In this document: in pieces, positions 1,870-58,200 of the stretch
Numbering within the stretch: position 1 is the stretch's first letter
Layout of the letters: every line of letters starts with the position of its first letter
IMG/VR virus record: IMGVR_UViG_3300031841_003468
Location: 64,001 to 128,000 of that record
Reading direction: 5' to 3' (one strand)
DNA from: a virus
Length of the DNA stretch: 64,000 bases
The notes under the pieces: model-generated
Seen by the model: only the letters and a program-made list of their open reading frames with translations
What the model was told of the DNA's origin: nothing
Databases searched by the model: none
Translations under genes and position numbers: made by a program

Positions 1870-2754
1870 TTATTCCACTCCACGATTCACCTCATTGATA
1901 ATAAATAGTGCATCAATCGGGGAAACAATGCCATCGCCAGTCACGTCAGGACTATTAGCAAAGTAAGAGTCGATAGGAGAATAGTCATCATTCAGCGTCT
2001 GCTCTGGAGTAACAGTGTTTGCTTCTGCTATAATATCTATAGCTTCTTCTGCAAATCTCTCGCCCAGAATCCTATATCCCTCGGAAGTATAGTGAAGATC
2101 ATTAGGACTATTAGAGAAGTCATTGAGATCATCAGTATCAACCCATCGGCCATTCATTTTATATTCTCGTAGTGCATTCCAAGTCGCAGCATCGTGTCTT
2201 GGCCCAGTAAAGTCAGATAGTCGTCCGTCAACTTTCTCAACCTCTACACCTGTCGCATCCGAGAGAACACTTAACATTCCAGTAAATGCTTCATCATATT
2301 CACTGATTGGTGTTCTTAGATACGAATCTCTTTCACCCTGCATCCACAGTAATGTTACTGAATCATACTCAGTATTCGGAATTTGAGATAAGATCTGATT
2401 CAGATAACCTACGGGACTGTCAGTATCCACATTATACCAGTCAGAAATCGGTCGGCCACCTTCATTAACCTTGATGTGATCTACGTTAACATTATTATCT
2501 TCAGCCCATGAGTTAGTATGCGTAGTAAAGTGTCCGAGATTCATCCCGGCCATATTAGACTGGCCTGATAATATAAATAGGTGATTAGAATCTTCTGGAA
2601 TCTCAACAATAGGTTCTGCATCGACACTATTGATAGCATTTATAACGATAAGTGCATCAATCGGACTCACATAGCCGTCATTGTTAATATCTAATTCTAA
2701 GTCTGCCGCTAATAACCGGCGATCTTCTAAACTCTCGAATCTTAATTTACGCAT
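1870..2754 (-). CDS. SASA (sialate O-acetylesterase/CE6-like SGNH) protein with planctomycete extracellular motif and two dockerin-like repeats
   Basis: MRKLRFESLEDRRLLA N-terminus; DINNDGYVSPIDALIVIN and DVTGDGIVSPIDALFIIN; LFILSGQSNM, WMQGE, DLHY motifs; RBS GGAG before ATG 2754. Confidence 0.88.
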   Translation of the reverse strand: MRKLRFESLEDRRLLAADLELDINNDGYVSPIDALIVINAINSVDAEPIVEIPEDSNHLFILSGQSNMAGMNLGHFTTHTNSWAEDNNVNVDHIKVNEGGRPISDWYNVDTDSPVGYLNQILSQIPNTEYDSVTLLWMQGERDSYLRTPISEYDEAFTGMLSVLSDATGVEVEKVDGRLSDFTGPRHDAATWNALREYKMNGRWVDTDDLNDFSNSPNDLHYTSEGYRILGERFAEEAIDIIAEANTVTPEQTLNDDYSPIDSYFANSPDVTGDGIVSPIDALFIINEVNRGVE

Positions 2755-2755
2755 T

Positions 2756-3516
2756 CTATTTTCTCCTTCTTCCCCTGTATGCATCTATTATAATCTTTAT
2801 AGACTTGCATGTCAAGTAAAAAGTGATAGACAAAAAGCAAATTGTGGATATTAATCCTATCGTAACACATATATTAGGTGGATAGTGTAGCCAATCTATC
2901 ATTTAGACTGATGTCCTCTGTATATACAGTAAGCCATGAATCCTATCATGATTGTGGCTGCACAGCCCTTGAAAACAACATCCCAGAAATTAAGTAAGTC
3001 TTCCATATTAATTCTCCTTATCCCATCCGTGTGCGAGGCACCACACACTAAAAAGTAACCAAAACAAACACCAACATATTAAAAAACGTAGTAGGAAGTA
3101 ATTGAAACTAAAATCGTGCTCAAGGCCTCCGGCATCAGCAAATAACATATTAGCTCCCTTCTAATTCTTTAATAGTCCTATTTCTTACATGTATAAACCA
3201 AATAGTGGTATATACAGCGGCGAATATTACATATATATCGTATTCAGTACTCATATTATATACTATTCGTCCTTATTGTCAATATCTTTATAGTCGTAAT
3301 ATAAGAATATAAACCATATAGCTGTCAATATAGCCAGTATACCGCCCTCAAACATCTTCATTACTCCTTGTTAATATATATATTAGTATGCCAGATATCA
3401 GTAATATAGCTATTGTGCCGTAATCCATGTTAATAACCTCTTTTGTATATATCATATAGACAGGCACCTAATAATATACCTGCCAGCATACCAAAGCTAA
3501 ACCCTACCATAAACAT
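2756..3516 (-). CDS. seven tandem single-TM micropeptide ORFs (3430-3516, 3348-3428, 3263-3361, 3150-3254, 3008-3148, 2899-3006, 2756-2902)
   Basis: manually translated 26-48 aa ORFs, abutting or overlapping, several with GGAG/GAGG RBS, each with one hydrophobic stretch. Confidence 0.7.
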
Positions 3517-4778: not shown

Positions 4779-5659
4779 GCTAGTCTCCTTTTCTTTTAGC
4801 AGGTTAGTATGCCATCATTATAACATACTTGCACAGGTTGTCAATAGATTATTTTAATTTATCTGAGATTATTATTACGGGTAACATTATAAGTAGAGAT
4901 ATATGTACTGGGAACTGCACGGTAAATAATATAGCTAGTGCTCCAGTAACAATTCTATTTCTGCTAGTTATTATAGTAGGCTGTTTCATAAATTTCAAAA
5001 ACTCATTACAGTTTGATTCTTTAGTTTCTTTCTGCCCTTATTATAGGTATATCGGCACATAAGTCAACCATCTGTACTGACTTTTTCAAAAATATCCATA
5101 TTTATTCTGGAGGCTAATATATATACTAGGACGGAACAAATGTTTCGGGTGTATCCTTTTGATGACATATGCTCCAAACTGTTATCAATTTGAATACACT
5201 TTCGGAATACTATATATCTTTCGGGGGAATTATTGGCCGGAACAAAATAATTATGTGCAATTTGGCTCAAAACTAACTATAATAGAAACGTAAGGAGTTT
5301 CAATTAGTCAGTACTCTTATCTGTTACTAAATGTGGAACTTACCTAACGCTAAATCGAAAACTAACTACCCCACTTGGTTTATCGGTTTTTAGCAGAAGT
5401 AAATGAATAGATGAAGTAAGTTAATATATATTTCTAAGACAGTTGGTAGATCAAACATTTATTTTCCTTTTACTCTGCTACTCTTATTCGTGGACTAATA
5501 CTCGTTCTTTGTAGTATATATTCTTAAGTCCAACTCAACACACATTTTTTTTACGTTCCTATTTTCGCTGGCTATTAAGATATAGAGGGAGTCTTATACG
5601 GTTAGCTTGTACAATGGTGAATAATTCTTAATAAATATAGTTCTTTGTGTAATATATTA

Positions 5660-5832
5660 TGTGGACACGTAGCAAAACAAAATTTCCTCACTGTTTTGCC
5701 GGATTTTACGATAAACAACAATTATATCCGTGTGTGCAAGGCGACTTGTATACATAATTATCGGATCTCCGATTAGTGTCATCGCTGTCTCCTCGGCCCG
5801 TATGCGTTGTTTAGCGTTACGGGCCTTTTTTT
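5660..5832 (+). ncRNA. candidate ~170-nt multibranch structured RNA (or attenuator leader)
   Basis: TTGTGTAA motif at 5645; stems 5664-68/5776-80, 5672-79/5692-99, 5700-04/5726-30, 5731-40/5745-54 (GCGA tetraloop, two G.U), 5760-64/5769-73; ends in terminator. Confidence 0.6.
5795..5832 (+). terminator. intrinsic terminator
   Basis: GGCCCGTA...TACGGGCC followed by T7. Confidence 0.85.
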
Positions 5833-5863
5833 ATGTCGCAACAATGAGTTATGGGAGTATCAC

Positions 5864-6550
5864 ATGTTAAGAAGAGAATTTATCGGTGTCGCAGCCGCAA
5901 CTATAATAAGCAGACCGTCTCTGGTAGCAGCAAGGGATAACAAGCCTTGTCTTAAATGTCTAGAAGCCAAAAACAGACCAGAACAAAATAAGAAAGTATC
6001 TTGGGGTCAACGTACATTAGGTTACGCTATCTTTCATGGAGATGATGAAGACCTAGATATTGAAATCTGGCGTGGTGAAATAGCTGCTGCATTTGACTCT
6101 TGGGCTAAACACACTAATCTCTTCTTTCAGGAACTAACTAATCCTCGTGCGATGCCATATGCTCATATCGGATTCTCTGTTGGTAATAGCCCGGAAGAGA
6201 AATTCGGTGAGAAGAATGGTGTATTAGGCTGGGCCTATATGCCGACTGAGGAAAACTTTGTTGGTCAGTTACTATGTAAGTTCGATCTAGCCGAACAATG
6301 GGTATTGGAACCTGAGGAATTTGGAATCTGCTTAAGGACTGTAGCAGCACACGAGATAGGGCATCTATTGGGCCTATACCACTCTGAGAGTAAAGATGAT
6401 CTTATGTATCCTACTTATAATAAAAACTTTACAGAACCTCAGAGAGGCGACGTGAAGACCCTACAGAGCATTTATGGAAAACCTGCTCGTAATAAGGAAA
6501 GATGGCTGGAGAAGTACATTGAAGATCTAAAGAAACAAAGATCTAAATAG
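5864..6550 (+). CDS. matrixin (M10 metzincin) metalloprotease with Tat signal
   Basis: MLRREFIG twin-arginine signal; HEIGHLLGLYH zinc motif; LMYP Met-turn; GGGAG RBS before ATG 5864. Confidence 0.9.
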   Translation: MLRREFIGVAAATIISRPSLVAARDNKPCLKCLEAKNRPEQNKKVSWGQRTLGYAIFHGDDEDLDIEIWRGEIAAAFDSWAKHTNLFFQELTNPRAMPYAHIGFSVGNSPEEKFGEKNGVLGWAYMPTEENFVGQLLCKFDLAEQWVLEPEEFGICLRTVAAHEIGHLLGLYHSESKDDLMYPTYNKNFTEPQRGDVKTLQSIYGKPARNKERWLEKYIEDLKKQRSK

Positions 6551-6581
6551 TATATTAGCCACCCTATAGTTCCTGATCAAT

Positions 6582-6615
6582 GCCCCGTTAACTTTCACGA
6601 GTTGCGGGGTTTTTT
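6582..6615 (+). terminator. intrinsic terminator
   Basis: GCCCCG...CGGGGT hairpin followed by T-run after matrixin. Confidence 0.75.
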
Positions 6616-8590: not shown

Positions 8591-8690
8591 CGCAATCTCC
8601 TTATAGAATGTGTGTTTGTTACTCTCTTATTATATATTATCGGAGCATGAAGTCAAGAACTTTAAGGAATTTTTTGGGATTTATTTTTTA

Positions 8691-8742
8691 CCCCCCTGAT
8701 GGGTGGCAAGGGGGCCGGAGGCCTCACCCCCCAAGAGAGGGG
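8691..8742 (+). repeat. 52-bp element, copy 2
   Basis: CCCCCC TGAT GGGTGG CAAGGG GGCCGG AGGCCTCA CCCCCC AAGA GAGGGG. Confidence 0.95.
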
Positions 8743-8758
8743 TATTCCCATTTGGCAT

Positions 8759-8796
8759 AAAAAAGCGGCGGCCACCGCATTAAGAGGGTGACCGCC
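8759..8796 (-). terminator. intrinsic terminator
   Basis: GGCGGTCACC/GGTGGCCGCC stem then T6 on minus strand. Confidence 0.85.
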
Positions 8797-8983
8797 TAAA
8801 CAACACACTTTGGTAGGGCGATGGGGATTGACCTCAAACTTAATTGGGTCGCTCCCTCATCTTCGGCGGTGTGTGCCTACTAACCCCTGTTCGCATTATG
8901 CCTCCGGCAGATGGCTTGGGCTAGACGTTGAAGTATTTTCTCAGTCACCCAAATCCAAACCACCATCAGCCACCATTCTGACT

Positions 8984-10198: not shown

Positions 10199-10274
10199 CT
10201 TAGGAACTCCAATTAGAAAAAAGTGTTGTTTGTTGTACTCTATTATATATTATCGACAGCCAAAGTCAAGAACT

Positions 10275-14248: not shown

Positions 14249-14352
14249 ACCACCAGTCCTTTCTGCTAAATTGCAATAAAATGGGGTTAAAAAAATGGGA
14301 TTTGAACATCTTTTGTGTATATATATTATAGACATATAGCAAAGGAAGTCAA

Positions 14353-14868
14353 ATGAAAACTCATAAAAAATGTACTACTTGTAAAGAAACTCTAGAAATT
14401 ACTAACTTTTGGAAAGATAAGTCTAGAGGTGATGGTTATAATTGTAGATGCAAATCGTGTGCTAAGGCTAAAAATAAGATCTACATGAAAACATATGCTA
14501 AAAAATACTATCAGGATAATAAGGACAAGATTACTGAACAGCGTAAGGCTAGATATAATAATAACCCTGCTGTGCGTGTTGCCAACAGTATGCGTTGCCG
14601 TATATATAATACTATCGTTAAAGGTTATAAAAGTGCTACTACATTTGAATTGATTGGATGTGATGCTGATCAATTAGTTTCCCATATAGAGAAACAGTTT
14701 ACAGAGGGAATGAGTTGGGATAACTATGGGGAATGGCATATCGACCATATCAAGCCCATTTGTTCGTTTGACATACTAAACCCTACTGAACAGCTTAAAT
14801 GCTACCATTACACCAATCTACAGCCTCTATGGGCACATGACAACCTAAGTAAAGGCGGTAAGTATTAG
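14353..14868 (+). CDS. HNH homing-type endonuclease, antisense insertion
   Basis: CTTC..CKSC N-terminus; MSWDNYGEWHIDHIKP...HYTNLQPLWAHDNLSKG. Confidence 0.9.
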   Translation: MKTHKKCTTCKETLEITNFWKDKSRGDGYNCRCKSCAKAKNKIYMKTYAKKYYQDNKDKITEQRKARYNNNPAVRVANSMRCRIYNTIVKGYKSATTFELIGCDADQLVSHIEKQFTEGMSWDNYGEWHIDHIKPICSFDILNPTEQLKCYHYTNLQPLWAHDNLSKGGKY

Positions 14869-22799: not shown

Positions 22800-23021
22800 A
22801 TGTCAGAAAATATTCGCAAAAATTTACTGGAATCCGAACTCGTGGCGAGGGGAACTGCAGAGTTAGAAGAAGACGTGCGTAAAGCTTTAGCAATGGAAGC
22901 TGGTTTATCACCAGAAGAAGTAGACGCACTATTTGAGTCCGGTATGCCTTTCGGTACAACAGCACACACGGTTTGCGACCCAGAAGAAAGCAAACCCACC
23001 AAGGATGAAATTACCGACTAA
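22800..23021 (+). CDS. hypothetical protein
   Basis: ATG 22800 downstream of GTGTATAAT at 22748. Confidence 0.5.
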   Translation: MSENIRKNLLESELVARGTAELEEDVRKALAMEAGLSPEEVDALFESGMPFGTTAHTVCDPEESKPTKDEITD

Positions 23022-23520
23022 CATGACTGAGGCAGAGGTCGTCCAAACGATTTTGGAAGTGACCAAGAGATTGTCCTCCAGTTTTACATTTGCATACTTC
23101 GACAAAGAAGATATAGAACAAGAAGCCTTCTTAATGGGAATGGAAGCTCTCGATAGATACGATGAAGCTCGCCCTCTTGAAAACTTTCTATTCATACACA
23201 TCAAGAATCGCCTTAAGAACTTTAAGCGTGATAAGTACTATCGCTACGATGAAGGCAAAGCTCAGAAAATACAACAAAACAAGAAGAACTTGTTAGACCC
23301 TCTCAATATTGACGTACTCCCTCTTTCTTATCGTGACAATAAAGACGAAGAGCGTGACATTGAAGAGATATACAATATAATAGATAGAAATTTACCCAAC
23401 ACCATGAGAAACGATTATCTTCGCATCAAATCCGGTGTTCAAGTTAACAAGAATAAAAGAATTGAAGTAATCGAAGAAATACAAAGAATACTGGAGGAGG
23501 TATTAAATGAAGAAGGGTAG
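23005..23520 (+). CDS. phage sigma70-family sigma factor (probable late sigma)
   Basis: EDIEQEAFLMGMEALDRYD..RPLENFLFIHIKNRLKNFKR = sigma region 2 pattern. Confidence 0.8.
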   Translation: MKLPTNMTEAEVVQTILEVTKRLSSSFTFAYFDKEDIEQEAFLMGMEALDRYDEARPLENFLFIHIKNRLKNFKRDKYYRYDEGKAQKIQQNKKNLLDPLNIDVLPLSYRDNKDEERDIEEIYNIIDRNLPNTMRNDYLRIKSGVQVNKNKRIEVIEEIQRILEEVLNEEG

Positions 23521-28899: not shown

Positions 28900-28959
28900 T
28901 CTTGTGTATTTTATTTGGTAATCATATTATCAATTAGATTGATCTGGAGAGTGGACAAA

Positions 28960-31140: not shown

Positions 31141-32724
31141 ATGAAAATTTATGCACAAGAAATCAAAGATGGGCTAGAACAGTCTATCACTGAAAACAGC
31201 ACCTTGGCATACGCATCACCAGCAGCTTGTACTGCTGAACCGAATTTAGAAGATGTAGCAGTCGCTACCGAACTTCTAAAGACTGAAGCGGAAAACAAGG
31301 AGCAAATAGATTTATACTACTTAAGTGCTATCTTAGTTAGTACTGGGTGGAATAAGAACGACGACGTATTTGATCCAGCAGAAGTTTGGACTGCACGTAA
31401 CACGCCTGAAGACAAGCAGTTTAATTTTATGCATAATGAGGCTGATATTATTGGCCACATCACTGGTAACTACGCCGTTGACTTTGCGGGAAATAAAATT
31501 TCCGACGAGCTTCAGGAGTCACCTGAAGAGTTCAACATTGTAACATCAGCAGTTCTTTATACTAGCTGGAGTGATCCAGATCTTAGAGAACGTATGAATA
31601 AAATCATTGCTGAAATTGAAGATGGTGACAAATGGTTCGTTTCAATGGAATGTTTATTCTCAAACTTTGATTATGCCCTAACTAATATGGCATCAGGCGA
31701 AACTAAAATTGTAAATCGTAATGAGGCGAGTGCTTTTCTAACTAGACATTTGAGAGCCTATGGCGGCTCTGGATCATACGGTGATTACAAGGTTGGTCGT
31801 TTACTAAGAGATATATCCTTCTCTGGCAAAGGTTTGGTAAGTAAACCGGCTAATCCAAGATCCGTAATTTTGAAGGAAAGCAATATGGCTTTCAGCGAAG
31901 CATCGGCTCAAACAATAGAAGACATAAACCTTATAAAGGAGTCTAAAGACATGAATCTAGAAAATAAGATTGAAGAACTAGAAGCTGCTTTGGCTACTGC
32001 TAATGCAACTATCGAAACTCTTCAAACTCAACTAGAAGAGACTGCTGCTCAAGAAGAACAAGCTCAGGCTGAAGCTCTTGAAACAGCAATGACTGAAAAG
32101 GACGAAACCATCGCTGGTTTGTCTTCTCAGATCGAAGAAGCTACTGCAAAGGTTGCTGAACTTGAAGCAACTCTAGCAGAAATTACCGAAGCAAAAGAAA
32201 TTGCAGAAGCTGCTCTAGCTCAAATCGAACTAGAAAAGATTACTGCTGCTCGTCTTGCTTCACTAGTTGAAGCTGGCCTAACTGAAGAAGCTGCTGAAGA
32301 AGCAGTTGCTAAGTTTGAGTCACTTGACGAAGAAACTTTTGCTGGAATGGTATCTTTACTAGACACTGTTTCCGTTAAAGAAGAAACTGAAGCTGAAGTT
32401 GCTCCAGTTGCTCTAGAAACTGAAGAAGAAGCTGCTGAAGAAGTTGCTGAAATCGAAGTTGAAGAAGTAGCTGAAGAAGCTCCTGCCGAAGAACCTGCTG
32501 AAGAAGAAGAAATCATCGAAGAACCTGCTGCTGAACTAGAAGAAGAAGCAGACGATGCAGAAGCCGAAGCCTCTGAAGAAGTTTTGGAAGAAGCTGAAGA
32601 AGTTGCAGATGTAACACTAGCTGAAGCTGGCGAACTTGTAGATCCTGCAGAGGAACTACGCACTCAGGCATCTACTTGGATTGCCGAACACGTTTTAACT
32701 ACTACTAAAAATATTACTGAGTAA
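31141..32724 (+). CDS. prohead protease / scaffold fusion
   Basis: N-terminal NKNDDVF..MH...IIG...VSMEC...FSGKGLVSKPANPRS; C-terminal Glu/Ala-rich coiled coil. Confidence 0.8.
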   Translation: MKIYAQEIKDGLEQSITENSTLAYASPAACTAEPNLEDVAVATELLKTEAENKEQIDLYYLSAILVSTGWNKNDDVFDPAEVWTARNTPEDKQFNFMHNEADIIGHITGNYAVDFAGNKISDELQESPEEFNIVTSAVLYTSWSDPDLRERMNKIIAEIEDGDKWFVSMECLFSNFDYALTNMASGETKIVNRNEASAFLTRHLRAYGGSGSYGDYKVGRLLRDISFSGKGLVSKPANPRSVILKESNMAFSEASAQTIEDINLIKESKDMNLENKIEELEAALATANATIETLQTQLEETAAQEEQAQAEALETAMTEKDETIAGLSSQIEEATAKVAELEATLAEITEAKEIAEAALAQIELEKITAARLASLVEAGLTEEAAEEAVAKFESLDEETFAGMVSLLDTVSVKEETEAEVAPVALETEEEAAEEVAEIEVEEVAEEAPAEEPAEEEEIIEEPAAELEEEADDAEAEASEEVLEEAEEVADVTLAEAGELVDPAEELRTQASTWIAEHVLTTTKNITE

Positions 32725-33271: not shown

Positions 33272-34282
33272 ATGGCTAATTTAAGCAAACCTTCCCCAGA
33301 AATGCTAGAGTTGCTAAAGCAATCTGGTTCTTCTGACAAAGCTGTTGCTCTAGAAGCTCAGCGTGAAATCGCTAAAGCTCTAGAAGCTCCACTACGTAAG
33401 GGAGTTCTATTTGGTGACGTTGTAACTAATATCTTCCAAGCTATGCCTATGGAAGCTGGTGCAACTCCTGAATTCCCATTAGACCTACTAGCTCCGGGTT
33501 CAGAAACTGAACACGTTGCTTACACTAATCCGGGTCACGGTCGTATTCCAGAACGTCACGTTGAAGGTGATTACATCACTGTCAACACCTACGGCATCAC
33601 TAACAGCATCGACTTCCTAAGTCGTTATGCCCGTGAAGCTCGTTGGGACGTTGTACGTCGTGCTCTACAGGTTCTAGAAGCTGGATTCGTTAAGAAGATT
33701 AACGATGATGGTTGGCACACTCTACTAGCTGCTGCTGTTGATCGTAACGTTCTTGTTTACGATGCCGATGCTGCTGCTGGTCAGCTAACTAAGCGTCTAG
33801 TATCTCTAATGAAATCAGTTATGCGTCGTAACTCCGGTGGTAACAGCGTTACTGCTCCGGGTCGTCTAACTGACCTATACATGAGCCCTGAAGCTATCGA
33901 AGACATCCGCAACTGGGGTGTTGATCAGCTTGATGAAGTTTCACGTCGTGAAATCTACACTGCTGGCGATGGTGCTGCTCCTCTAACTCGTATCTTTGGT
34001 GTTAATCTACACGACCTATTTGAACTAGGTGAAGGTCAGGAATACCAGACTTTCTTCACTAGCGATCTATCTGGTGCTCTAGAAAGCACTGGTTCTGACG
34101 TTGAACTAGTCATCGGTCTAGACCTAAACAACAAAGACAGCTTTGTAATGCCTGTTAAGCAGGAAGTTGAAGTATTTGAAGATGACAGTCTTCACAGACA
34201 GCAACGTCAAGGCTACTACGGTTGGGCTGAAATGGGCTTTGGTGTCCTAGACAATCGTCGTGTTATCTGTGGTAGCTTCTAA
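33272..34282 (+). CDS. major capsid protein (HK97-like)
   Basis: position, size, strongly biased codons, followed by terminator. Confidence 0.85.
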   Translation: MANLSKPSPEMLELLKQSGSSDKAVALEAQREIAKALEAPLRKGVLFGDVVTNIFQAMPMEAGATPEFPLDLLAPGSETEHVAYTNPGHGRIPERHVEGDYITVNTYGITNSIDFLSRYAREARWDVVRRALQVLEAGFVKKINDDGWHTLLAAAVDRNVLVYDADAAAGQLTKRLVSLMKSVMRRNSGGNSVTAPGRLTDLYMSPEAIEDIRNWGVDQLDEVSRREIYTAGDGAAPLTRIFGVNLHDLFELGEGQEYQTFFTSDLSGALESTGSDVELVIGLDLNNKDSFVMPVKQEVEVFEDDSLHRQQRQGYYGWAEMGFGVLDNRRVICGSF

Positions 34283-34319
34283 TTTCTGAAGCTAATACGT
34301 AATACGTAACAATATAAAG

Positions 34320-34356
34320 AATAGCCGTTGGAGTAAAATCTGGCGGCTATTTTTTT
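34320..34356 (+). terminator. intrinsic terminator after MCP
   Basis: AATAGCCGTTGGA/TCTGGCGGCTATT + T-run. Confidence 0.9.
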
Positions 34357-34452
34357 ATTTTGTGTATAATATGATAGAGGAATAGAAGAAACTCCTCTTA
34401 AAGTATACTTAAAAATAACTGATTAATCAACATATATAGGAGATATTTTACA

Positions 34453-34866
34453 ATGTCTGCAATGTCTAATTATTTGGAAGAAAAGCTAATCGACCACATC
34501 TTTCGTGGAACTTCCTACACTGCTCCAACTACTGTTAAGGTAGGCTTGGTAAAGAAATTTGTTGCCGCTGACCTAGAAGCTGGCACTCTAACTGAAGAAA
34601 TGTCTGGCAATACTTATGCTGCTCAAACTGTTGGGCCGGGTTCATCTGATTGGGATGCAATCGCTGGTGGTAATGGTGCTACAGCTAATACTGCTAGAAT
34701 TGAATTCCCTCAAGCAACTGCTGATTGGGGTCACATTTCTGGTGTTTACATTTGTGATGAGTCTAACAATGTTCTTCTTTACGGTCAATTAACAACTACT
34801 CGTTTTGTTCGTGACGGAGACCAGTTTGTTTTTGCTGCTGGCGACTTAGACATCACATTCGCCTAA
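34453..34866 (+). CDS. virion structural protein (fibre-associated)
   Basis: MSNYLE..L..IFRG...FP.AT.DWG.I...F.AG.LDIT common phage family. Confidence 0.75.
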   Translation: MSAMSNYLEEKLIDHIFRGTSYTAPTTVKVGLVKKFVAADLEAGTLTEEMSGNTYAAQTVGPGSSDWDAIAGGNGATANTARIEFPQATADWGHISGVYICDESNNVLLYGQLTTTRFVRDGDQFVFAAGDLDITFA

Positions 34867-35217: not shown

Positions 35218-38202
35218 ATGCTCGTCAAAGACAGAGTAAAGGAATCGGCCACAGGTACGTCCGGTAATCTGTCCCTTCAGGGGGCAGACACCGGCTATGT
35301 GGCTTTTTCTACTATTGGAAATAATGAATATACATACTACTGCGTTATAAGTGCAGATAGAACTCAATGGGAAGTTGGCTACGGTCAACTTAACTCTGAT
35401 TCTAGTGAGCTTATTAGACCAGCTACAGTTATATCTAACAGTGCAGGCAACACTTCAAGACTTACTCTTGGTAGTGGAACCCACACTGTTTTTTGCACGT
35501 CTCCCGCTAGCAAATCTGTCTACCTTGACAATTCTGGGGCAGCAAATGTAGCTGTTAGTGTATTTACTAATGATGCTGGCTATTTAACATCCTATACAGA
35601 AACAAATGATCTAAGCTCGGCAGTTACTTGGGCAAATGTTCCTGATGCCAACATTACAGAATCGTCGGTAACACAGCATCAAGCTGCTCTTTCTATAACA
35701 GAATCACAGATCAGTGACTTTGGAACTTACCTTACTTCTGAGACTTCACATGCAGATGTCGTTGTGGATGGAGACTTTGGTTCAGAAGGCTTGATGAAGC
35801 GTGGCGGTAGTGCTGGAACATATACTATAGTAACTGATAACTCATCTAATTGGAACACTGCCTTTGGATGGGGTAATCATGCATCCGCTGGCTACTTAAC
35901 TTCTATATCTGGAATAACAACATCTAGTTTTGATGCTGCAACATTAGTTACAGAAGCAGATGACATATCAGACAATGATAATGATACAACAATCCCGACT
36001 TCTGCAGCAGTAAAAGATTATGCTGATCATGCAGAAAGTATTCTTAAATGTGTAAATGCTAGCGGTGGAACCCTCAATGCTGGCGAAGCCGTTTATCTTT
36101 CTGGTCATACTGGAACACAGATACAGGTTGACAAAGCAGACAATACTGATGCGGCTAAGATGCCAGCCATAGGTATAGTTAAGACTTCTGCTAGTAATAA
36201 TGCCGCAGTAGATATTGTCACGCATGGTAAACTTATAGGGATTGATACTTCTACACCAGCCTACTCAGTAGGGGATGAATTATATATTAACGGCTCAGGT
36301 GCTTTAACAGATGTTGTTCCTACCGGTGAGTCATCACTAATACAAAAAATGGCAAAAGTTGTAAGGGTTCATGCCAGTAGCGGTGAAATATATATTATGG
36401 GTGCAGGAAGAAGTAATGCTGTACCTAATCTAAATTCAGCTAAAATATTTCTAGGTAATGCTAGCAATAAGGCTGTCGCCACCAGTATCACCGGAGATGT
36501 TACTATTACTAACGCTGGCGTTACTACCGTTGGCTCTGTTGGTGAGTCTATTGTAACAGCACACCAAGCTGCACTGTCTATAACTGAGTCACAAATAAGT
36601 GATTTAGGCTCTTACATCACTGCTAGTTCTATAGATACATTAACAAATAAGAGTGGTAATATTTCTCAGTGGACAAATGACTCAGGTTATTTAACTGCTG
36701 TTTCTGGATTAACTGTAAGTAATTTTGATGCTGCAACAATAGTTTTAGAATCTGAAGGAATTGGGTCTAACGATAATGACACAACTATTCCTACCTCTGC
36801 TGCAGTTGTAGACTATGTAGCCAATAATGCTGGTGGTGCTAGCGACCTAAATGACTTAGGGGACGTTTCTTATGGTGGAACAAATCTGAGTCATACCATA
36901 TTGATTAATAATAATCCCGGCTCTGCACCTAACCATGGAACTTTAGGGTCAGACAATACTAGAAATCTTGGGATTGGCTACTTTGCTTTATCTAGTATAA
37001 CAGACGCTTCCTACAATATTGCTTTAGGTAGTCTTTCCGGATGGCAGTTGACTACAGGGGACAAAAATGTATTTATAGGGCAAGATGCTGGATCACAAAT
37101 TACAGACGGGGACAGTAATATATGCATTGGCTATCAAACTCAGTATTACGGCAATGACGGAGATTACAACATAGCTATTGGTATTCATGCCTTAAGGGGA
37201 AACAGTAATGGTACTAGCACAACAAACAACTATAATAATATAGGTATTGGACAGCAAGCTTTATACAAAATTGAAGATGGAGATTCAAATGTAGCAGTCG
37301 GATATAAGGCTGCAAATGAAGTTAAAAACGGACAACAAAATGTTGCCGTTGGATATCAGGCACAACTATATGACGAAACTTGCGACCATAATGTTGCTAT
37401 TGGTAGAGACGCTTTAAAAGGAAGTGCTAGCTCTGATAATCAGCAATACAACACGGGCGTAGGAGCTACAGCCCTTTTTGCCATTACAACCGGAAGTTAT
37501 AATACCGGTGCTGGAGCATATACTGGAGCAGATCTTACGACAGGTGATAAAAATGTATATCTAGGGTACTCTGCTGGAACTGGAGCAACCGCAACAGAAA
37601 GCAACATGCTATACATTGGAAACGCTATTGTTTCTCTTGATGGAACAATTATCAAAGCAGATATGGCAGAAAAACATATTGCTTTCGGCATGGCCGACGA
37701 CCATTTTAGTAACACTACTGGCTCAGCTACTGTCCAGATATATCCTAAAGATGCAGCAGACAATGCTTTAGAAATTAAGATGACTGCAACTCCTTCCGCT
37801 GCTACTCGTGCACTAGAAGTCAAGAACAGTTCTGGTACTAGCCAATACTCGGTCACTGCAGACGGTGCAGTAAAAAGCAAAATGCACACCGAAACTTATG
37901 GAGCTACTACAACATTTGACTTAAACGAATCAAACTTTTTTACGGTTACATTAACTGGCGACAGTACTTTTGCACTTTCAAACTCTACTACAGGGCAAAG
38001 ATTTGTAATTAGGGTTGTACAAGACGGCACTGGTAGTCATGGTGTAACTTGGTGGAGTGGATTAAAGTGGGCTAATGCAACCGCACCAACTTTAACAACT
38101 GCCGCAAACTCAATCGACACATTTGGCTTCATTTGCACGGATTCTTCGACTCCTGTTTATGAAGGTTATATCATAGGACAGAATGTAGCGACACCATCAT
38201 AA
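35218..38202 (+). CDS. fibre protein with YadA-like N-x-A-I-G repeats
   Basis: DRVKE..T N-terminus, internal duplications (HQAALSITESQISD, NDTTIPTSAAV), NIAIG/NVAVG repeats, QDGTGS..W C-terminal module. Confidence 0.8.
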   Translation: MLVKDRVKESATGTSGNLSLQGADTGYVAFSTIGNNEYTYYCVISADRTQWEVGYGQLNSDSSELIRPATVISNSAGNTSRLTLGSGTHTVFCTSPASKSVYLDNSGAANVAVSVFTNDAGYLTSYTETNDLSSAVTWANVPDANITESSVTQHQAALSITESQISDFGTYLTSETSHADVVVDGDFGSEGLMKRGGSAGTYTIVTDNSSNWNTAFGWGNHASAGYLTSISGITTSSFDAATLVTEADDISDNDNDTTIPTSAAVKDYADHAESILKCVNASGGTLNAGEAVYLSGHTGTQIQVDKADNTDAAKMPAIGIVKTSASNNAAVDIVTHGKLIGIDTSTPAYSVGDELYINGSGALTDVVPTGESSLIQKMAKVVRVHASSGEIYIMGAGRSNAVPNLNSAKIFLGNASNKAVATSITGDVTITNAGVTTVGSVGESIVTAHQAALSITESQISDLGSYITASSIDTLTNKSGNISQWTNDSGYLTAVSGLTVSNFDAATIVLESEGIGSNDNDTTIPTSAAVVDYVANNAGGASDLNDLGDVSYGGTNLSHTILINNNPGSAPNHGTLGSDNTRNLGIGYFALSSITDASYNIALGSLSGWQLTTGDKNVFIGQDAGSQITDGDSNICIGYQTQYYGNDGDYNIAIGIHALRGNSNGTSTTNNYNNIGIGQQALYKIEDGDSNVAVGYKAANEVKNGQQNVAVGYQAQLYDETCDHNVAIGRDALKGSASSDNQQYNTGVGATALFAITTGSYNTGAGAYTGADLTTGDKNVYLGYSAGTGATATESNMLYIGNAIVSLDGTIIKADMAEKHIAFGMADDHFSNTTGSATVQIYPKDAADNALEIKMTATPSAATRALEVKNSSGTSQYSVTADGAVKSKMHTETYGATTTFDLNESNFFTVTLTGDSTFALSNSTTGQRFVIRVVQDGTGSHGVTWWSGLKWANATAPTLTTAANSIDTFGFICTDSSTPVYEGYIIGQNVATPS

Positions 38203-55088: not shown

Positions 55089-55134
55089 TTTTTGTGTAAT
55101 TATAGGTAGGGTAAGCTCTACAAACGGTTAGTGC

Positions 55135-55196
55135 AAGGTATGCGGATAGTGTTTAAGATAACAATGTATTACTCACTATTCGTATACCTTTTTTTT
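55135..55196 (+). terminator. long-stem terminator directly upstream of TMP
   Basis: 17-bp stem AAGGTATGCGGATAGTG/CACTATTCGTATACCTT + T-run. Confidence 0.75.
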
Positions 55197-55218
55197 GAAA
55201 AAATGGACTTAGGAAAGT

Positions 55219-58200
55219 ATGTCGTTTAACCTAACCGCACACCTACAGGTTCAGGCTCCTAATCTTAGACCTGTCATTACTCAAATGCGTCAGCAGCTAG
55301 CTAATGCAGGTAATGTACAAATTAATCCAGTTTCTCCTCAAACTGCAGCCAACGTCGCTCAGGTTGGTAAGCAAGCACAAGCCGCAGGAAAGCACCTAAA
55401 AAATGCTGCTCATGCAGGCAGGGGCTTTGCCGGATCTTTAATGGAAAGTGTCAAGCGTGCTGCTGGTCTTAGTATTGCACTGGGTACAATTATTGCGTTG
55501 CAAAGAGCCATTACAGACGGTTTTGCTGCAGCATTTAAGTTTGAAAGAGAACTAGCTAGATTACAACAGGTTACTGGCAAAACAAAGGCTCAGTTAGGTG
55601 GGTTAACCGAGGAAGTTCGTAGGCTAGCAAAAACCTTTGGTACATCTTCTGAAGAGTTACTAACGGTATCTAGAACATTAGCACAAGCAGGCTTCTCCGC
55701 TGAAACAACTAAAAGATTGCTAGACACATTAGCAAAGACTGATGTTGCAGCTACATTTGATAGCATTGAAGACTCTGCCGAAGGTATGATCGCATTACTA
55801 AATCAGTTTGGTAGAGATATTGTTGGTGCTGCACAAAAAGCAGATTTTGCAAGAAGTGTATTTGAAAAGATTAATGTTGTATCTAAAAGTTTTGCTGTTG
55901 AATCTGCCGACTTAATTACAGTTATTAGACGTGCTGGTTCTGTATTCAAAGAAGCTGGTGGTAGTGTTGACGAACTATTAGCAGCCTTTACTTCTGTTCG
56001 TTCTGCTACCCGTGAATCTGCAGAAAGTATTGCAGTTGGTTTTAGAACCATTTTTACTCGTATCCAAAGAGTTGAAACTATTGATCAGCTTAGATCTCTT
56101 GGTATTGCCCTGCAGGATGCTGAAGGTAAGTTTATTGGGCCACTTCAGGCTGTTGAGAAACTTGCTCGTGCATTAGATACTCTTGACCCTAGAGACGCTA
56201 GATTTTCAGCTATTGTTGAAGAGCTTGGTGGTTTCCGTCAGGTTTCTAAGGTTATTCCATTAATTAAAAACTATGCTGTTACACAAGAAGCATTAAACCT
56301 TCAGAAAAAAGCTGATGCTAGTTTGACTAAAGATGCAGCTTATGCGACTGCAACATATGCACAAAGAATGCAACAGTTAAAAGAGACCTTTCTAGATCTC
56401 ATAAACAATATGGTGGGAAGCAAGGGCTTTAAAGATATAGCAGATGACGTTTTAACGCTAGCTAAATCATTAGCATCAGTCATTGAAAGAATGGGTAAAT
56501 TCTTGCCAATGCTTGCAGCATTAGGTACTGTTGGTGGTTTTAAATTATTAGGGGGTATGATTAAGGGCGGTAGAGGTTATGCCACTGGCGGTAAAGTACA
56601 TGCTTTCAATAGTGGCGGTTTTGTGCCGGGCACTGGAAACACAGATAGTGTCAATGCTGTTTTGACTCCGGGCGAATATGTTCTTAGAAAAAGTGCTGTT
56701 AAAAACTTACAGGCCAACGGTGTTGACCTTAATTCTATGAATAGATACTCTGGTGGTGGTAGAGTAGGCTATGCTGTATTAGGTAAAAAAAATAAGGCAA
56801 CATCATCTTCATATAGTTTGGGAAATCAGCTTCCAACTGAAAGCGGAGCAAGAAAAAACATAGCCTCAGCCGCAGCTAAGAAAAAGGTTTCTGAGGCACA
56901 AGCAAATAAAGCTTGGCAAAGAGCTGTCCCTAAAACCATGAAAAACTTTAGTATTACCTTTGCTGGCCCCAAGGGTAGTCCTACTATGTCGGAAGATTTT
57001 ACCGAAGCGGTAGAAAGTTCTTATCTTAATGCTATTAGTGCAGCGTCAAAGTCAGTTGGTGAACCATTTGGCTTAAAGGGCACAGATATTACAAAAGGCA
57101 ATAGAGCAAGAGTACTAAAAGGTCTTAACGATGCTACTATTGGTAACTTGTTTGAACAGACTTTAACAAATCTTAGTGGTAATAGATATGATAAGAACCC
57201 TAATCCTCGTGCAGCTTATGACCTACCAAAAGGTCTTGGAAATGCAGGTAAATTATTCCCAGAGCTAAAAGCATTTACACCTGTTGAAGCTAAAGCTACA
57301 ATGCAGGCTGCAGGTAAAAAGAATGACAGAATTAAAAAATGGGCCAACTATCTTGGTGAAAAAGTCTCTGCAAGAAAGATCGAAAGAGAAATTGACAGAG
57401 GAGCCAAGAAGAAATCGCAACAGGGCACACAGGTCGCAGCAGGTCGTAGTAAATTTACTACACATCAGGCTGGCACCTTTAAGATGCCGAAGATTACAAC
57501 ATCCTCAAGGGGCGGTCTGATCAGCAGGTTCTCTAGAGGTGGTCAAAACACAGATAGTGTACCCGCTAAAGTAATGCCGGGTGAGTTTATCATCAATAAG
57601 AAGTCTGCTTCTGCGATTGGCATGGCCAACCTAGAAAAGATGAACCAGTCTGGAAAACCTTTACACTTTGCTAAGGGTGGTGCGGTTCCGGGTGCTCAGA
57701 TTAAGAGATATTCCGGCGGTGGCGGCGTTGCAGGTAATTTCGGCACGTTAGCTCTTTTGGGGCTTCCTATAGCTATGTCGAGCATGACAAAAGCACTAGA
57801 AAAAGCAACTGAGGAAACCAAGGCATTTGTCAATGAGTTTATGGCATGGATTCCTATAATCGGTCTTGCTGCCTATATAACAAACAATCTTGTTGCCTCA
57901 TTCACCGCACTAGATGCTGCTGCTAAAAAACGTGCCGCTGAGGAAGCTGGCGGCGGGATGATCGCCGGAGGTGCCATTGGAGGGGCTATTACGGGTGCTG
58001 TAACAGGTGGCTTTATTGCTGCTGCACACGAAGCTGCTCGTGCTGCCGAAAGATTTACCAAACTTAATAATGCTGCTGATGCGGCCTCTAAAGGTGTTAA
58101 GGCATTTACTGAAGCACTAAGAACTGGTTCAGAAAGAGCACCAAATAGAGAAAGATATATAAATCAGGTTCAAAGAGCCGCAGCAGCCAGAGCTAAAACA

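What the first reader, a model, noticed from the sequence alone, without database searches (positions are those of the whole stretch)
5645..5832. Candidate novel ~170-nt late RNA with multiway junction and loop-loop complementarity
Seen: putative late promoter (5645), then closing helix GACAC/GTGTC enclosing four hairpins. One is a 10-bp stem with two G.U pairs capped by a GNRA loop (GCGA). A terminator follows. The loop CGATAAACAAC (5709-5719) is complementary at 10/11 positions to the terminator loop GTTGTTTAGCG (5806-5816). I do not recognise the family. Inference: a stand-alone RNA with a kissing-loop contact (intra- or intermolecular; phi29 pRNA is only an analogy), or an attenuator gating the matrixin gene, which has no other obvious promoter.
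Basis: partly seen in the sequence, partly recalled or inferred. Interest (0 to 1): 0.72.

Follow-up and report, generated by a model that had tools for sequence, protein, structure and literature searches.

The report
Structured phage leader RNA before protease gene
An uncultured 154-kb marine phage carries a conserved, strongly folded ~170-nt RNA of no known family that starts at a late-type promoter and ends in a terminator just before a secreted metalloprotease gene, so it most likely throttles that gene and may also persist as a small RNA.

Summary
On the + strand, 5661-5832 folds as described: closing helix, hairpins, a 10-bp GNRA-capped stem with two G.U pairs, and an intrinsic terminator. 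MFE is -56.4 kcal/mol, z -5.3. The loop-to-terminator-loop match is 11 of 12.

The promoter call is also supported. The same heptamer-plus-AT-rich motif lies 40-130 nt upstream of several + strand structural genes, and the phage encodes sigma-like proteins.

No Rfam family matches. The RNA occurs only in a narrow clade of seawater phages, as four sequence variants. Its core is 93% conserved, while third codon positions of the neighbouring gene differ by about 30%. A 1-nt indel and lost start codons rule out coding on either strand.

Covariation is too thin to prove a fold. There is one double compensatory change, several wobble-compatible changes, and one hairpin (P2) that is not conserved. 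The consensus fold is a three-way junction.

More distant phages have the same promoter type directly before their matrixin genes, with no long leader or terminator.

Best reading (about 0.5): a terminator-based attenuating leader for the Tat-exported matrixin gene. Its terminated product is a discrete ~170-nt late RNA, analogous to lambda 6S/StxS. The trigger is unknown. The phi29 pRNA analogy is not supported. No RNA data were available.

The parts
5621..5660 (+). Late-class promoter region: T-rich stretch, heptamer TTGTGTA at 5645-5651, AT-rich -10-like stretch 5650-5660. Predicted transcription start about 5661-5665.
   Evidence: The same heptamer plus AT-rich stretch lies 40-130 nt upstream of + strand ORFs at 14313, 28902, 31089, 34360, 51548 and 55092. 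Seven of 14 + strand hits lie in the 11% of the genome that is ORF-free. A 36-nt look-alike of 5621-5656 sits in other contexts in other seawater contigs (table 7). The start site is inferred, not measured.
5661..5668 (+). 5' strand of closing helix P0; pairs with 5776-5785.
   Evidence: Invariant in four variants, so there is no covariation. Ensemble probability 0.42.
5672..5699 (+). Hairpin P1: 8 bp with a 12-nt loop containing CCUC.
   Evidence: Pair probability 0.999. One C-G to U.G change, and a 1-nt indel confined to the loop.
5700..5730 (+). P2 region. It forms a 5-bp hairpin in this sequence only, or is the 5' strand of the conserved long arm (5700-5703 and 5709-5714). It contains the invariant single-stranded stretch 5705-5725, which includes the segment 5708-5719 complementary to the terminator top.
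   Evidence: The P2 3' arm (5726-5730) is replaced in two of four variants, leaving 70% of cells paired. Alternative pairing. Complementarity.
5731..5754 (+). Hairpin P3: 10-12 bp, two or three G.U pairs, GNRA tetraloop GCGA at 5741-5744.
   Evidence: Probability 0.998. The loop-closing pair G-C becomes U.G through changes on both sides in two variants. The G.U pairs would be C.A on the other strand, which fixes the strand.
5758..5773 (+). P4 hairpin (5760-5764 with 5769-5773), or the 3' strand of the conserved long arm (5758-5763 and 5768-5771).
   Evidence: Invariant, so the two folds cannot be told apart.
5776..5785 (+). 3' strand of closing helix P0.
5786..5794 (+). C/U-rich single-stranded linker. 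It reads as a Shine-Dalgarno sequence on the opposite strand.
   Evidence: Invariant.
5795..5832 (+). Intrinsic terminator: 8-bp G+C-rich lower stem, bulge, 5-bp upper stem, tetraloop, seven U.
   Evidence: -20.1 kcal/mol. There is no U-run on the other strand. Variant changes keep pairing: A to G gives U.G in the lower stem, and two G.U pairs become A-U in the upper stem. The apical segment 5805-5813 is invariant.
5853..5857 (+). Shine-Dalgarno GGGAG of the matrixin gene.
   Evidence: 6 nt before the ATG at 5864.
5864..6550 (+). Matrixin-type zinc metalloprotease gene (228 aa) with a twin-arginine-type N-terminus; the gene the leader precedes.
   Evidence: PF00413, E 4.8e-29. RRxF and HExxHxxGxxH are conserved in 27 relatives.

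Best explanation
This is a promoter-proximal, terminator-ended structured leader RNA that attenuates transcription into the phage's Tat-exported matrixin gene.

Proposed mechanism:
1. RNA polymerase starts at about 5661-5665 from a late-class, probably phage-sigma-dependent, promoter.
2. It transcribes a ~135-nt junction-type structure whose 5' end pairs with 5776-5785.
3. It meets a strong intrinsic terminator at 5795-5832.
4. Most transcripts end there and give a discrete, probably stable RNA of about 165-172 nt.
5. The fraction that reads through is the only source of matrixin mRNA.

The invariant segment 5708-5719 can pair with the top of the terminator (5806-5817). This pairing is the candidate device that sets or regulates the read-through fraction, either as a pseudoknot or as a competing long-range helix.

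Shown: the anatomy, strand, non-coding nature, conservation and promoter class.
Inferred: the start site, termination in vivo, regulated rather than fixed read-through, and the identity of any trigger (protein, ligand or RNA).
For: - Fold and terminator.
- Strand: G.U pairs, a U-run on + only, and a 10 kcal/mol worse reverse fold.
- No ORF lies between the promoter and the terminator. The + frame loses its ATG and is frameshifted in variants. The - frame is 41, 62 or 59 aa with different C-termini after a 1-nt indel, and all its substitutions are non-synonymous.
- No sigma-70-like + strand promoter lies between 5660 and 5864. Only 31 nt separate the terminator from the SD.
- The same promoter motif directly precedes protein genes elsewhere with 40-130-nt leaders. 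One of these, at 14313, also shares the first ~13 transcribed bases.
- Distant matrixin genes (L101, L104, L134, L130, L131) have the same promoter type 73-89 nt before the ATG, with no terminator or long leader. In this clade the structured RNA therefore sits between a promoter and gene that are otherwise adjacent.
- Purifying selection: the core is 93.3% identical between the window and the 87%-protein-identity variant. Matrixin third codon positions differ at 68 of 229 sites.
- At the decision point (RNA up to 5817), the fold containing the 5708-5719:5806-5817 helix is within 1 kcal/mol of the MFE, -41.3 against -42.3.
- Precedent: short RNAs terminated just downstream of a phage late promoter, one with a trans function of its own (lambda 6S / StxS; PMC7547250).
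Against: - There are no RNA data, so no 5' or 3' ends and no read-through ratio.
- Only four near-identical variants exist. Covariation is not significant: one pair changed on both sides, and 76 of 500 shuffles did as well.
- The middle of the fold is ambiguous between four hairpins and a three-way junction.
- The loop-loop pairing shows no covariation.
- The 340 nt upstream (5501-5644) is equally conserved (93.8%) but unstructured (z +1.3). Conservation alone therefore does not single out the RNA.
- A classical antiterminator would pair with the 5' arm of the terminator. Here the lower 8-bp stem stays free and might terminate regardless.
- A second promoter motif, at 55092, is also followed by a strong terminator before an essential tape-measure-like gene. 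Late transcription in this phage may therefore pass terminators in general, which would weaken a gene-specific gating role.
Confidence: 0.5

Rival explanations
1. It is a stand-alone trans-acting late small RNA. The terminated ~170-nt RNA is the product that matters. Its invariant single-stranded stretches (5705-5725, the C/U-rich loop of P1, the linker 5786-5794 and the terminator loop) pair with phage or host mRNAs or bind a protein. Matrixin expression by read-through is incidental.
For: - Strong terminator with a U7 tail, and a 5'-3' closing helix at the predicted start, as in stable sRNAs.
- Loops are invariant while some stem positions change.
- The terminator loop is complementary to a heptamer found just upstream of the SD of four early genes, at 10231, 11988, 18686 and 18957 on the - strand.
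- StxS is a precedent for a dual-role RNA.
Against: - That heptamer is no more frequent on the early-gene strand than on the other (25 against 23), so the target idea has no statistical support.
- The matrixin gene would be left with no promoter of its own.
- Relatives put the same promoter directly in front of matrixin.
Confidence: 0.22
2. The terminator alone is functional, as a fixed dampener or an insulator against transcription entering the matrixin gene. The upstream structure is fortuitous or a relic.
For: - Covariation is not significant.
- P2 is not conserved.
- The neighbouring unstructured DNA is equally conserved.
- The element ranks 12th, not first, among windows of its size.
Against: - The core without the terminator still has z -4.06, with 0 of 200 shuffles as stable.
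- Every change in P1, P3 and the terminator keeps pairing, including one double change.
- Core divergence is about four-fold below that of third codon positions.
Confidence: 0.12
3. A small protein of 41-62 aa is encoded on the minus strand (ATG at 5782, with a Shine-Dalgarno sequence 6 nt upstream), as gene callers annotated in the related contigs.
For: - There is a good SD and ATG on the - strand.
- Genes of 59-62 aa were called there in related contigs.
- The first 34 codons are largely shared.
Against: - Lengths are 41, 62 and 59 aa, with unrelated C-termini after a 1-nt indel.
- There are no synonymous changes. All differences are non-synonymous, and two of them form the compensatory pair of P3.
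- No - strand promoter lies to its right, other than a 9-of-12 match inside the element.
- No family match was sought for such a short peptide.
Confidence: 0.05
4. It is a cis-acting processive antitermination RNA, working like HK022 put or the Bacillus EAR element. The folded RNA modifies the polymerase that made it, so that it ignores the terminator at 5795-5832 and later ones.
For: - A structured RNA lies directly downstream of a promoter and upstream of a terminator.
- A second late promoter is followed by a terminator before an essential gene, which hints that late transcripts must pass terminators.
Against: - There is no similarity to the EAR family in Rfam.
- The other late promoters lack this RNA: model R1 hits only once in the genome.
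- Only one short gene lies downstream before transcription converges with the - strand genes.
Confidence: 0.05
5. It is a packaging or virion RNA that multimerises through intermolecular loop-loop pairing, as in the reader's phi29 pRNA analogy.
For: Its size, and two mutually complementary exposed segments that could pair in trans.
Against: - No match to the pRNA family.
- The genome is 154 kb with a classical large terminase, portal-sized and capsid genes.
- An 11-of-12 match is far longer than the 4-nt pRNA loop contacts.
- The RNA is absent from related phages with 68%-identical terminase.
Confidence: 0.02

Closest known systems
Lambda 6S RNA / StxS: the short RNA from late promoter PR' terminated at tR' (PMC7547250)
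   Same: - A late promoter is followed within about 200 nt by an intrinsic terminator.
- The terminated product is a discrete short RNA.
- Downstream gene expression requires read-through.
- In Stx phages the by-product has acquired a trans function of its own.
   Different: - No Q-type antiterminator gene was detected (PF06530).
- The terminator gates a single accessory gene rather than the whole late operon. Other late genes have their own copies of the promoter.
- There is no sequence or Rfam similarity.
- The phage is a large uncultured marine virus, not a lambdoid one.
Terminator/antiterminator attenuators and riboswitch expression platforms
   Same: - It lies in a 5' leader between promoter and ORF.
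- A structured multi-helix domain is followed by an intrinsic terminator.
- An upstream segment can pair with part of the terminator in a near-isoenergetic alternative fold.
   Different: - The competing segment pairs with the loop and upper stem of the terminator, not its 5' arm.
- No ligand class or binding protein can be named.
- There is no broad phylogenetic distribution and no covariation support.
- No Rfam riboswitch matches.
HK022 put RNA and the Bacillus EAR element (RNA-mediated processive antitermination)
   Same: A promoter-proximal folded RNA in a phage or operon leader that lies upstream of terminators.
   Different: - put consists of two hairpins of about 70 nt in total.
- EAR (Rfam) does not match.
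- Here only one gene follows, and the element is unique in the genome.
phi29 pRNA
   Same: Size of about 170 nt, and complementary loops.
   Different: - No family match.
- A different type of phage and packaging machinery.
- The complementarity is 12 nt rather than 4 nt.
- The RNA lies in the leader of a protease gene.

Membership tests
Any Rfam 15 family | Covariance-model score at or above the family's gathering threshold | tested here: not met
   There were 0 matches in the whole window at gathering thresholds. At E up to 10, only terminator-driven hits far below threshold appeared; the best was 19.8 bits against a threshold of 50.
Lambda-type promoter-proximal terminated late RNA (6S / StxS) | A late promoter followed within about 200 nt by an intrinsic terminator, with no ORF between | tested here: met
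   Promoter motif at 5645 and terminator at 5795-5832. There is no conserved ORF on either strand.
Lambda-type promoter-proximal terminated late RNA (6S / StxS) | A Q-family antiterminator encoded by the phage | tested here: not met
   PF06530 finds nothing in the 153.7-kb record, although the control genomes do give matches. Other Q families were not searched.
Lambda-type promoter-proximal terminated late RNA (6S / StxS) | The terminator gates the whole late operon | tested here: not met
   Only the matrixin gene follows. Structural genes have their own copies of the promoter motif.
Terminator-based attenuator / riboswitch | A leader position with an intrinsic terminator directly upstream of the regulated ORF | tested here: met
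   The terminator ends at 5832, the SD is at 5853 and the ATG at 5864.
Terminator-based attenuator / riboswitch | Mutually exclusive alternative pairing that involves the terminator | tested here: inconclusive
   The helix 5708-5719:5806-5817 is within 1 kcal/mol of the MFE for RNA ending at 5817. It leaves the lower 8-bp stem free, and no covariation supports it.
Terminator-based attenuator / riboswitch | A conserved sensor domain with covariation across diverged sequences | tested here: inconclusive
   Only four variants exist, with 96% mean column identity. One double change was seen, and the covariation score was reached by 76 of 500 shuffles.
Terminator-based attenuator / riboswitch | Termination and read-through respond to a signal | not testable with these tools
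   This needs transcription assays or RNA-seq. No RNA run holds the stretch.
phi29 pRNA | A match to the pRNA family, and a phi29-type packaging system | tested here: not met
   There is no Rfam match. The genome is 154 kb with a large terminase of the phrog_2 type.
Protein-coding gene (either strand) | A reading frame conserved among relatives | tested here: not met
   The + frame loses its start codon and gains stops. The - frame is shifted by a 1-nt indel and has variable length.

The most novel reading that the evidence does not exclude
This is a new class of sensing attenuator in a phage. The junction domain would bind a small molecule, a metal or a phage or host protein. Binding would decide whether the invariant loop 5708-5719 captures the top of the terminator as a pseudoknot. 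In that way secretion of a zinc metalloprotease would be switched on only under a defined late-infection condition. The terminated RNA might act in trans as well.
Probability: 0.12. Interest if true: 0.75.

Novelty: new member of a known kind. Interest (0 to 1): 0.5.

Why it matters
Regulatory RNAs of uncultured marine phages are almost unknown. Here a late promoter, a conserved folded RNA, a terminator and a secreted protease gene form a compact unit that can be cloned and tested. It would show how a large marine phage doses an accessory exported enzyme. It may also be another case, beyond the lambdoid phages, in which a promoter-proximal terminated transcript serves as a functional RNA. The work also yields a candidate late-promoter consensus for this abundant phage group. 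The element is confined to one narrow clade, and its mechanism remains inferred.

Tried and rejected
- **Rfam:** nothing at gathering thresholds or at E up to 10. No tRNA or tmRNA.
- **Isolated phages:** blastn of 5400-6000 gave no match. The nearest isolates by terminase are only 26% identical.
- **IMG/VR:**
  - A single-protein matrixin search found nothing.
  - Exact-pattern scans with invariant 21-mer and 30-mer stretches found nothing.
  - blastn of 5400-6600 in five related virus records gave only chance-level hits.
  - Those five records also lack a matrixin gene.
- **JGI metagenomes:** an exact 19-mer found only two true copies, L107 and L109. The other seven hits are unrelated.
- **GTDB genomes:** an exact 24-mer found nothing.
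- **Covariance model R1** (core, 135 nt) hit only its own site in the genome. It hit nothing in four related phage records or in 63 matrixin-bearing loci.
- **Sequencing runs:** no RNA holder was listed. Laying DNA contigs of four runs showed no variation inside 5660-5832.
Upstream regions of most 40-48% matrixin homologues from ENA and Logan could therefore not be fetched. IMG/VR loci were used instead.
- **Anti-SD idea:** pairing of the C/U-rich linker or the P1 loop with the matrixin SD gives only -5.7 to -6.9 kcal/mol. The SD's predicted partners lie inside the coding region, so the idea was dropped.
- **Raw heptamer count:** the count of the promoter 8-mer is not enriched, 14 against about 9 expected. 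Only its placement is informative.
- **T7-type RNA polymerase** (PF00940): no hit, but the control genomes gave none either, so this is uninformative.
- **Genome-wide fold scan** of the full 154 kb timed out. It was redone on the 64-kb window.

Full report
**Context**

The window is bases 64001-128000 of a 153.7-kb IMG/VR virus record rated 99% complete. It encodes:
- a large terminase, a major head protein and a tape-measure-like protein of 2196 aa;
- many glycan-related genes;
- up to three sigma-70 region-2-like proteins.

Hundreds of uncultured marine contigs share about 68% terminase identity. No isolated phage is close.

Bases 1-22000 of the window are mostly short minus-strand genes behind consensus sigma-70 promoters. 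The finding lies in a roughly 1-kb ORF-free stretch (4779-5863) of that region. It sits directly upstream of one of the few plus-strand genes there.

**The observation**

- RNA 5660-5832 has an MFE of -56.4 kcal/mol and z -5.31. None of 200 dinucleotide shuffles is as stable.
- The core without the terminator still has z -4.06.
- The opposite strand folds 10 kcal/mol worse.
- The U-run and the G.U pairs fix the plus strand.
- Among 3192 windows of the same length in the 64 kb, it ranks 12th by GC-corrected energy, roughly the sixth distinct locus.
- The loop-to-terminator complementarity (5708-5719 with 5806-5817, 11 of 12, -11 kcal/mol) was matched in 16 of 2000 within-loop shuffles.

**Non-coding**

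The downstream gene starts at ATG 5864, behind GGGAG at 5853. It is a matrixin (PF00413, E 4.8e-29) with a twin-arginine-type N-terminus that is conserved in relatives.

Within the RNA there are two candidate frames.
- The plus-strand frame loses its ATG and acquires stops in variants.
- The minus-strand ORF has a good SD and was called as a gene in related contigs. It is 41, 62 or 59 aa long, with unrelated C-termini after a 1-nt indel. All its substitutions are non-synonymous. That indel falls in the loop of P1.

**Relatives and conservation**

Protein search found matrixins 96% and 87% identical. Their contigs and one JGI contig give four variants of the RNA (alignments A1, A3, A4).

Comparing the window with the 87% variant:

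| Segment | Identity or difference |
|---|---|
| RNA core | 93.3% identical |
| Matrixin CDS | 84.4% identical |
| Matrixin third codon positions | 68 of 229 differ |

The core therefore evolves about as slowly as first and second codon positions. The adjacent unstructured 5501-5644 is equally conserved (93.8%; z +1.3), so conservation alone is not specific to the RNA.

Changes inside helices keep pairing:
- C-G to U.G in P1;
- G-C to U.G, by changes on both sides, at the pair closing the GNRA loop of P3;
- A-U to G.U in the lower terminator stem;
- two G.U to A-U in the upper terminator stem.

The 3' arm of P2 is replaced in two variants. The RNAalifold consensus is a three-way junction, in which 5700-5714 pairs with 5758-5771 and carries P3. 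This fold is the MFE in three of the four variants and is 3.2 kcal/mol above the MFE in the window sequence.

Formal covariation is not significant. One pair has changes on both sides, and 76 of 500 shuffles do as well. Four metagenomic runs from four studies show no variation within 5660-5832.

**No wider family**

Nothing matched in any of these searches:
- Rfam;
- model R1 on the whole genome apart from its own site, on four related phage records, and on 63 matrixin-bearing loci;
- exact-pattern scans of IMG/VR and GTDB genomes.

**The promoter**

The 19-mer around 5640 occurs twice in the genome, at 5504 and 5640.

Its core, the heptamer at 5645 plus an AT-rich -10-like stretch, recurs on the plus strand.
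- It lies 40-130 nt upstream of ORFs at 28902, 31089, 34360 (just after the capsid-gene terminator), 51548 and 55092 (before the tape-measure-like gene). One further site lies outside the window.
- It also occurs at 14313, before another plus-strand gene embedded in the early region. That site additionally shares the first ~13 transcribed bases with 5661-5675.

Seven of the 14 plus-strand occurrences lie in the 11% of the genome outside long ORFs. The raw count is not enriched.

Distant matrixin genes in other marine phage contigs have a T-run plus the same core 73-89 nt before their ATG. They have no terminator and no long leader. A 36-nt look-alike of 5621-5656 occurs in other contexts in seawater contigs.

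By its spacing, transcription should start at about 5661-5665, which is exactly the start of the closing helix. This is inference; no RNA run was available.

**Mechanism**

No ORF lies between the promoter and the terminator. No other promoter-like site precedes the matrixin gene. Relatives join the same promoter type directly to matrixin. The most economical reading is therefore a terminator-based attenuating leader inserted between promoter and gene. Its terminated product is a discrete RNA of about 170 nt.

When the RNA has been made up to 5817, a fold containing the 5708-5719:5806-5817 helix is within 1 kcal/mol of the MFE. That is what a switch would need. However, the pairing spares the lower 8-bp stem of the terminator and has no covariation behind it, so regulated read-through is a hypothesis.

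The closest precedent is the lambda PR'-tR' 6S RNA. In Stx phages it is processed into the regulatory sRNA StxS (PMC7547250). Two differences stand out here: no Q-type gene was detected, and only one accessory gene is gated.

A trans role for the terminated RNA is plausible but untested. It is suggested by the invariant loops and by a terminator loop complementary to a heptamer in four early-gene leaders.

A second promoter motif, at 55092, is followed by a 17-bp/U8 hairpin before the tape-measure-like gene. This hints that late transcription may pass terminators generally, which would bear on how much this terminator actually stops.

**Verdict**

This is a real, conserved, non-coding, structured plus-strand element of no known family. 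It is best read as an attenuating leader and promoter-proximal terminated late RNA of the matrixin gene (confidence about 0.5). It is confined to one narrow clade of marine phages. The kissing-loop idea remains open, and the pRNA analogy is not supported. Interest is moderate.

Noticed in passing
window 28902, 31089, 34360, 48163, 51548, 55092, 14313, 5645 (+ strand); also G000:148605: There is a candidate late-promoter consensus for this phage group: a T-rich stretch, the heptamer TTGTGTA, an AT-rich hexamer, and often TAGAG about 14 nt downstream. It lies 40-130 nt upstream of plus-strand structural genes. A related form precedes matrixin genes in distant marine phage contigs (L101, L104, L130, L131, L134).
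   Followed up: partly
window 55092-55219: A promoter motif directly after the stop codon of the preceding gene is followed by a 17-bp hairpin with a U8 tail (about 55135-55197). The hairpin lies 22 nt before the 2196-aa tape-measure-like gene. All transcripts of this essential gene must therefore pass a strong terminator, which suggests terminator read-through or antitermination in late transcription.
   Followed up: partly
window 22933-23520 (+); G000:C1:11407-11616 (-); G000:C1:34621-34737 (-): There are three ORFs with sigma-70 region-2 similarity. The first opens the plus-strand late block. They are candidates for the factor that reads the heptamer promoters.
   Followed up: partly
window 14305-14868: A plus-strand ORF of 171 aa (no Pfam match) lies inside the minus-strand early region. 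It has the same promoter motif and the same first ~13 transcribed bases as the RNA at 5661-5675, but only a 40-nt leader.
   Followed up: partly
window 5501-5644: This unstructured (z +1.3) ORF-free stretch is 93.8% conserved between variants. It contains a second, degenerate copy of the promoter 19-mer at 5504-5522. Its function is unknown; it may hold regulatory sites between the divergent early and late promoters.
   Followed up: partly
window 4817-5303 (- strand): Five strong leftward sigma-70-type promoters, mostly with a 16-nt spacer and one a 12-of-12 match with an extended -10, are stacked in about 500 nt with no long ORF between them.
   Followed up: no
window 5864-6550 and alignment A5: The phage matrixin has a twin-arginine-type (RRxF) N-terminus and a conserved cysteine. 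Both are shared by dozens of marine viral homologues of about 210 aa, so this is a widespread exported viral metalloprotease family. It has no PHROG match.
   Followed up: partly
window 8689-8861 (-), 34180-34470 (+), 35220-35430 (+), 31969-32260 (-): These are the other most stable 173-nt windows in the GC-corrected fold scan. The first is the top scorer (z -4.5) and coincides with a structured 3' RNA noted by another first-stage reading.
   Followed up: no
window 1870-2784 (-): An exported SASA-type esterase carries a Planctomycete-type N-terminal motif and dockerin repeats. Together with canonical sigma-70 promoters and strong Shine-Dalgarno sites, this argues against a Bacteroidota host.
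   Followed up: no
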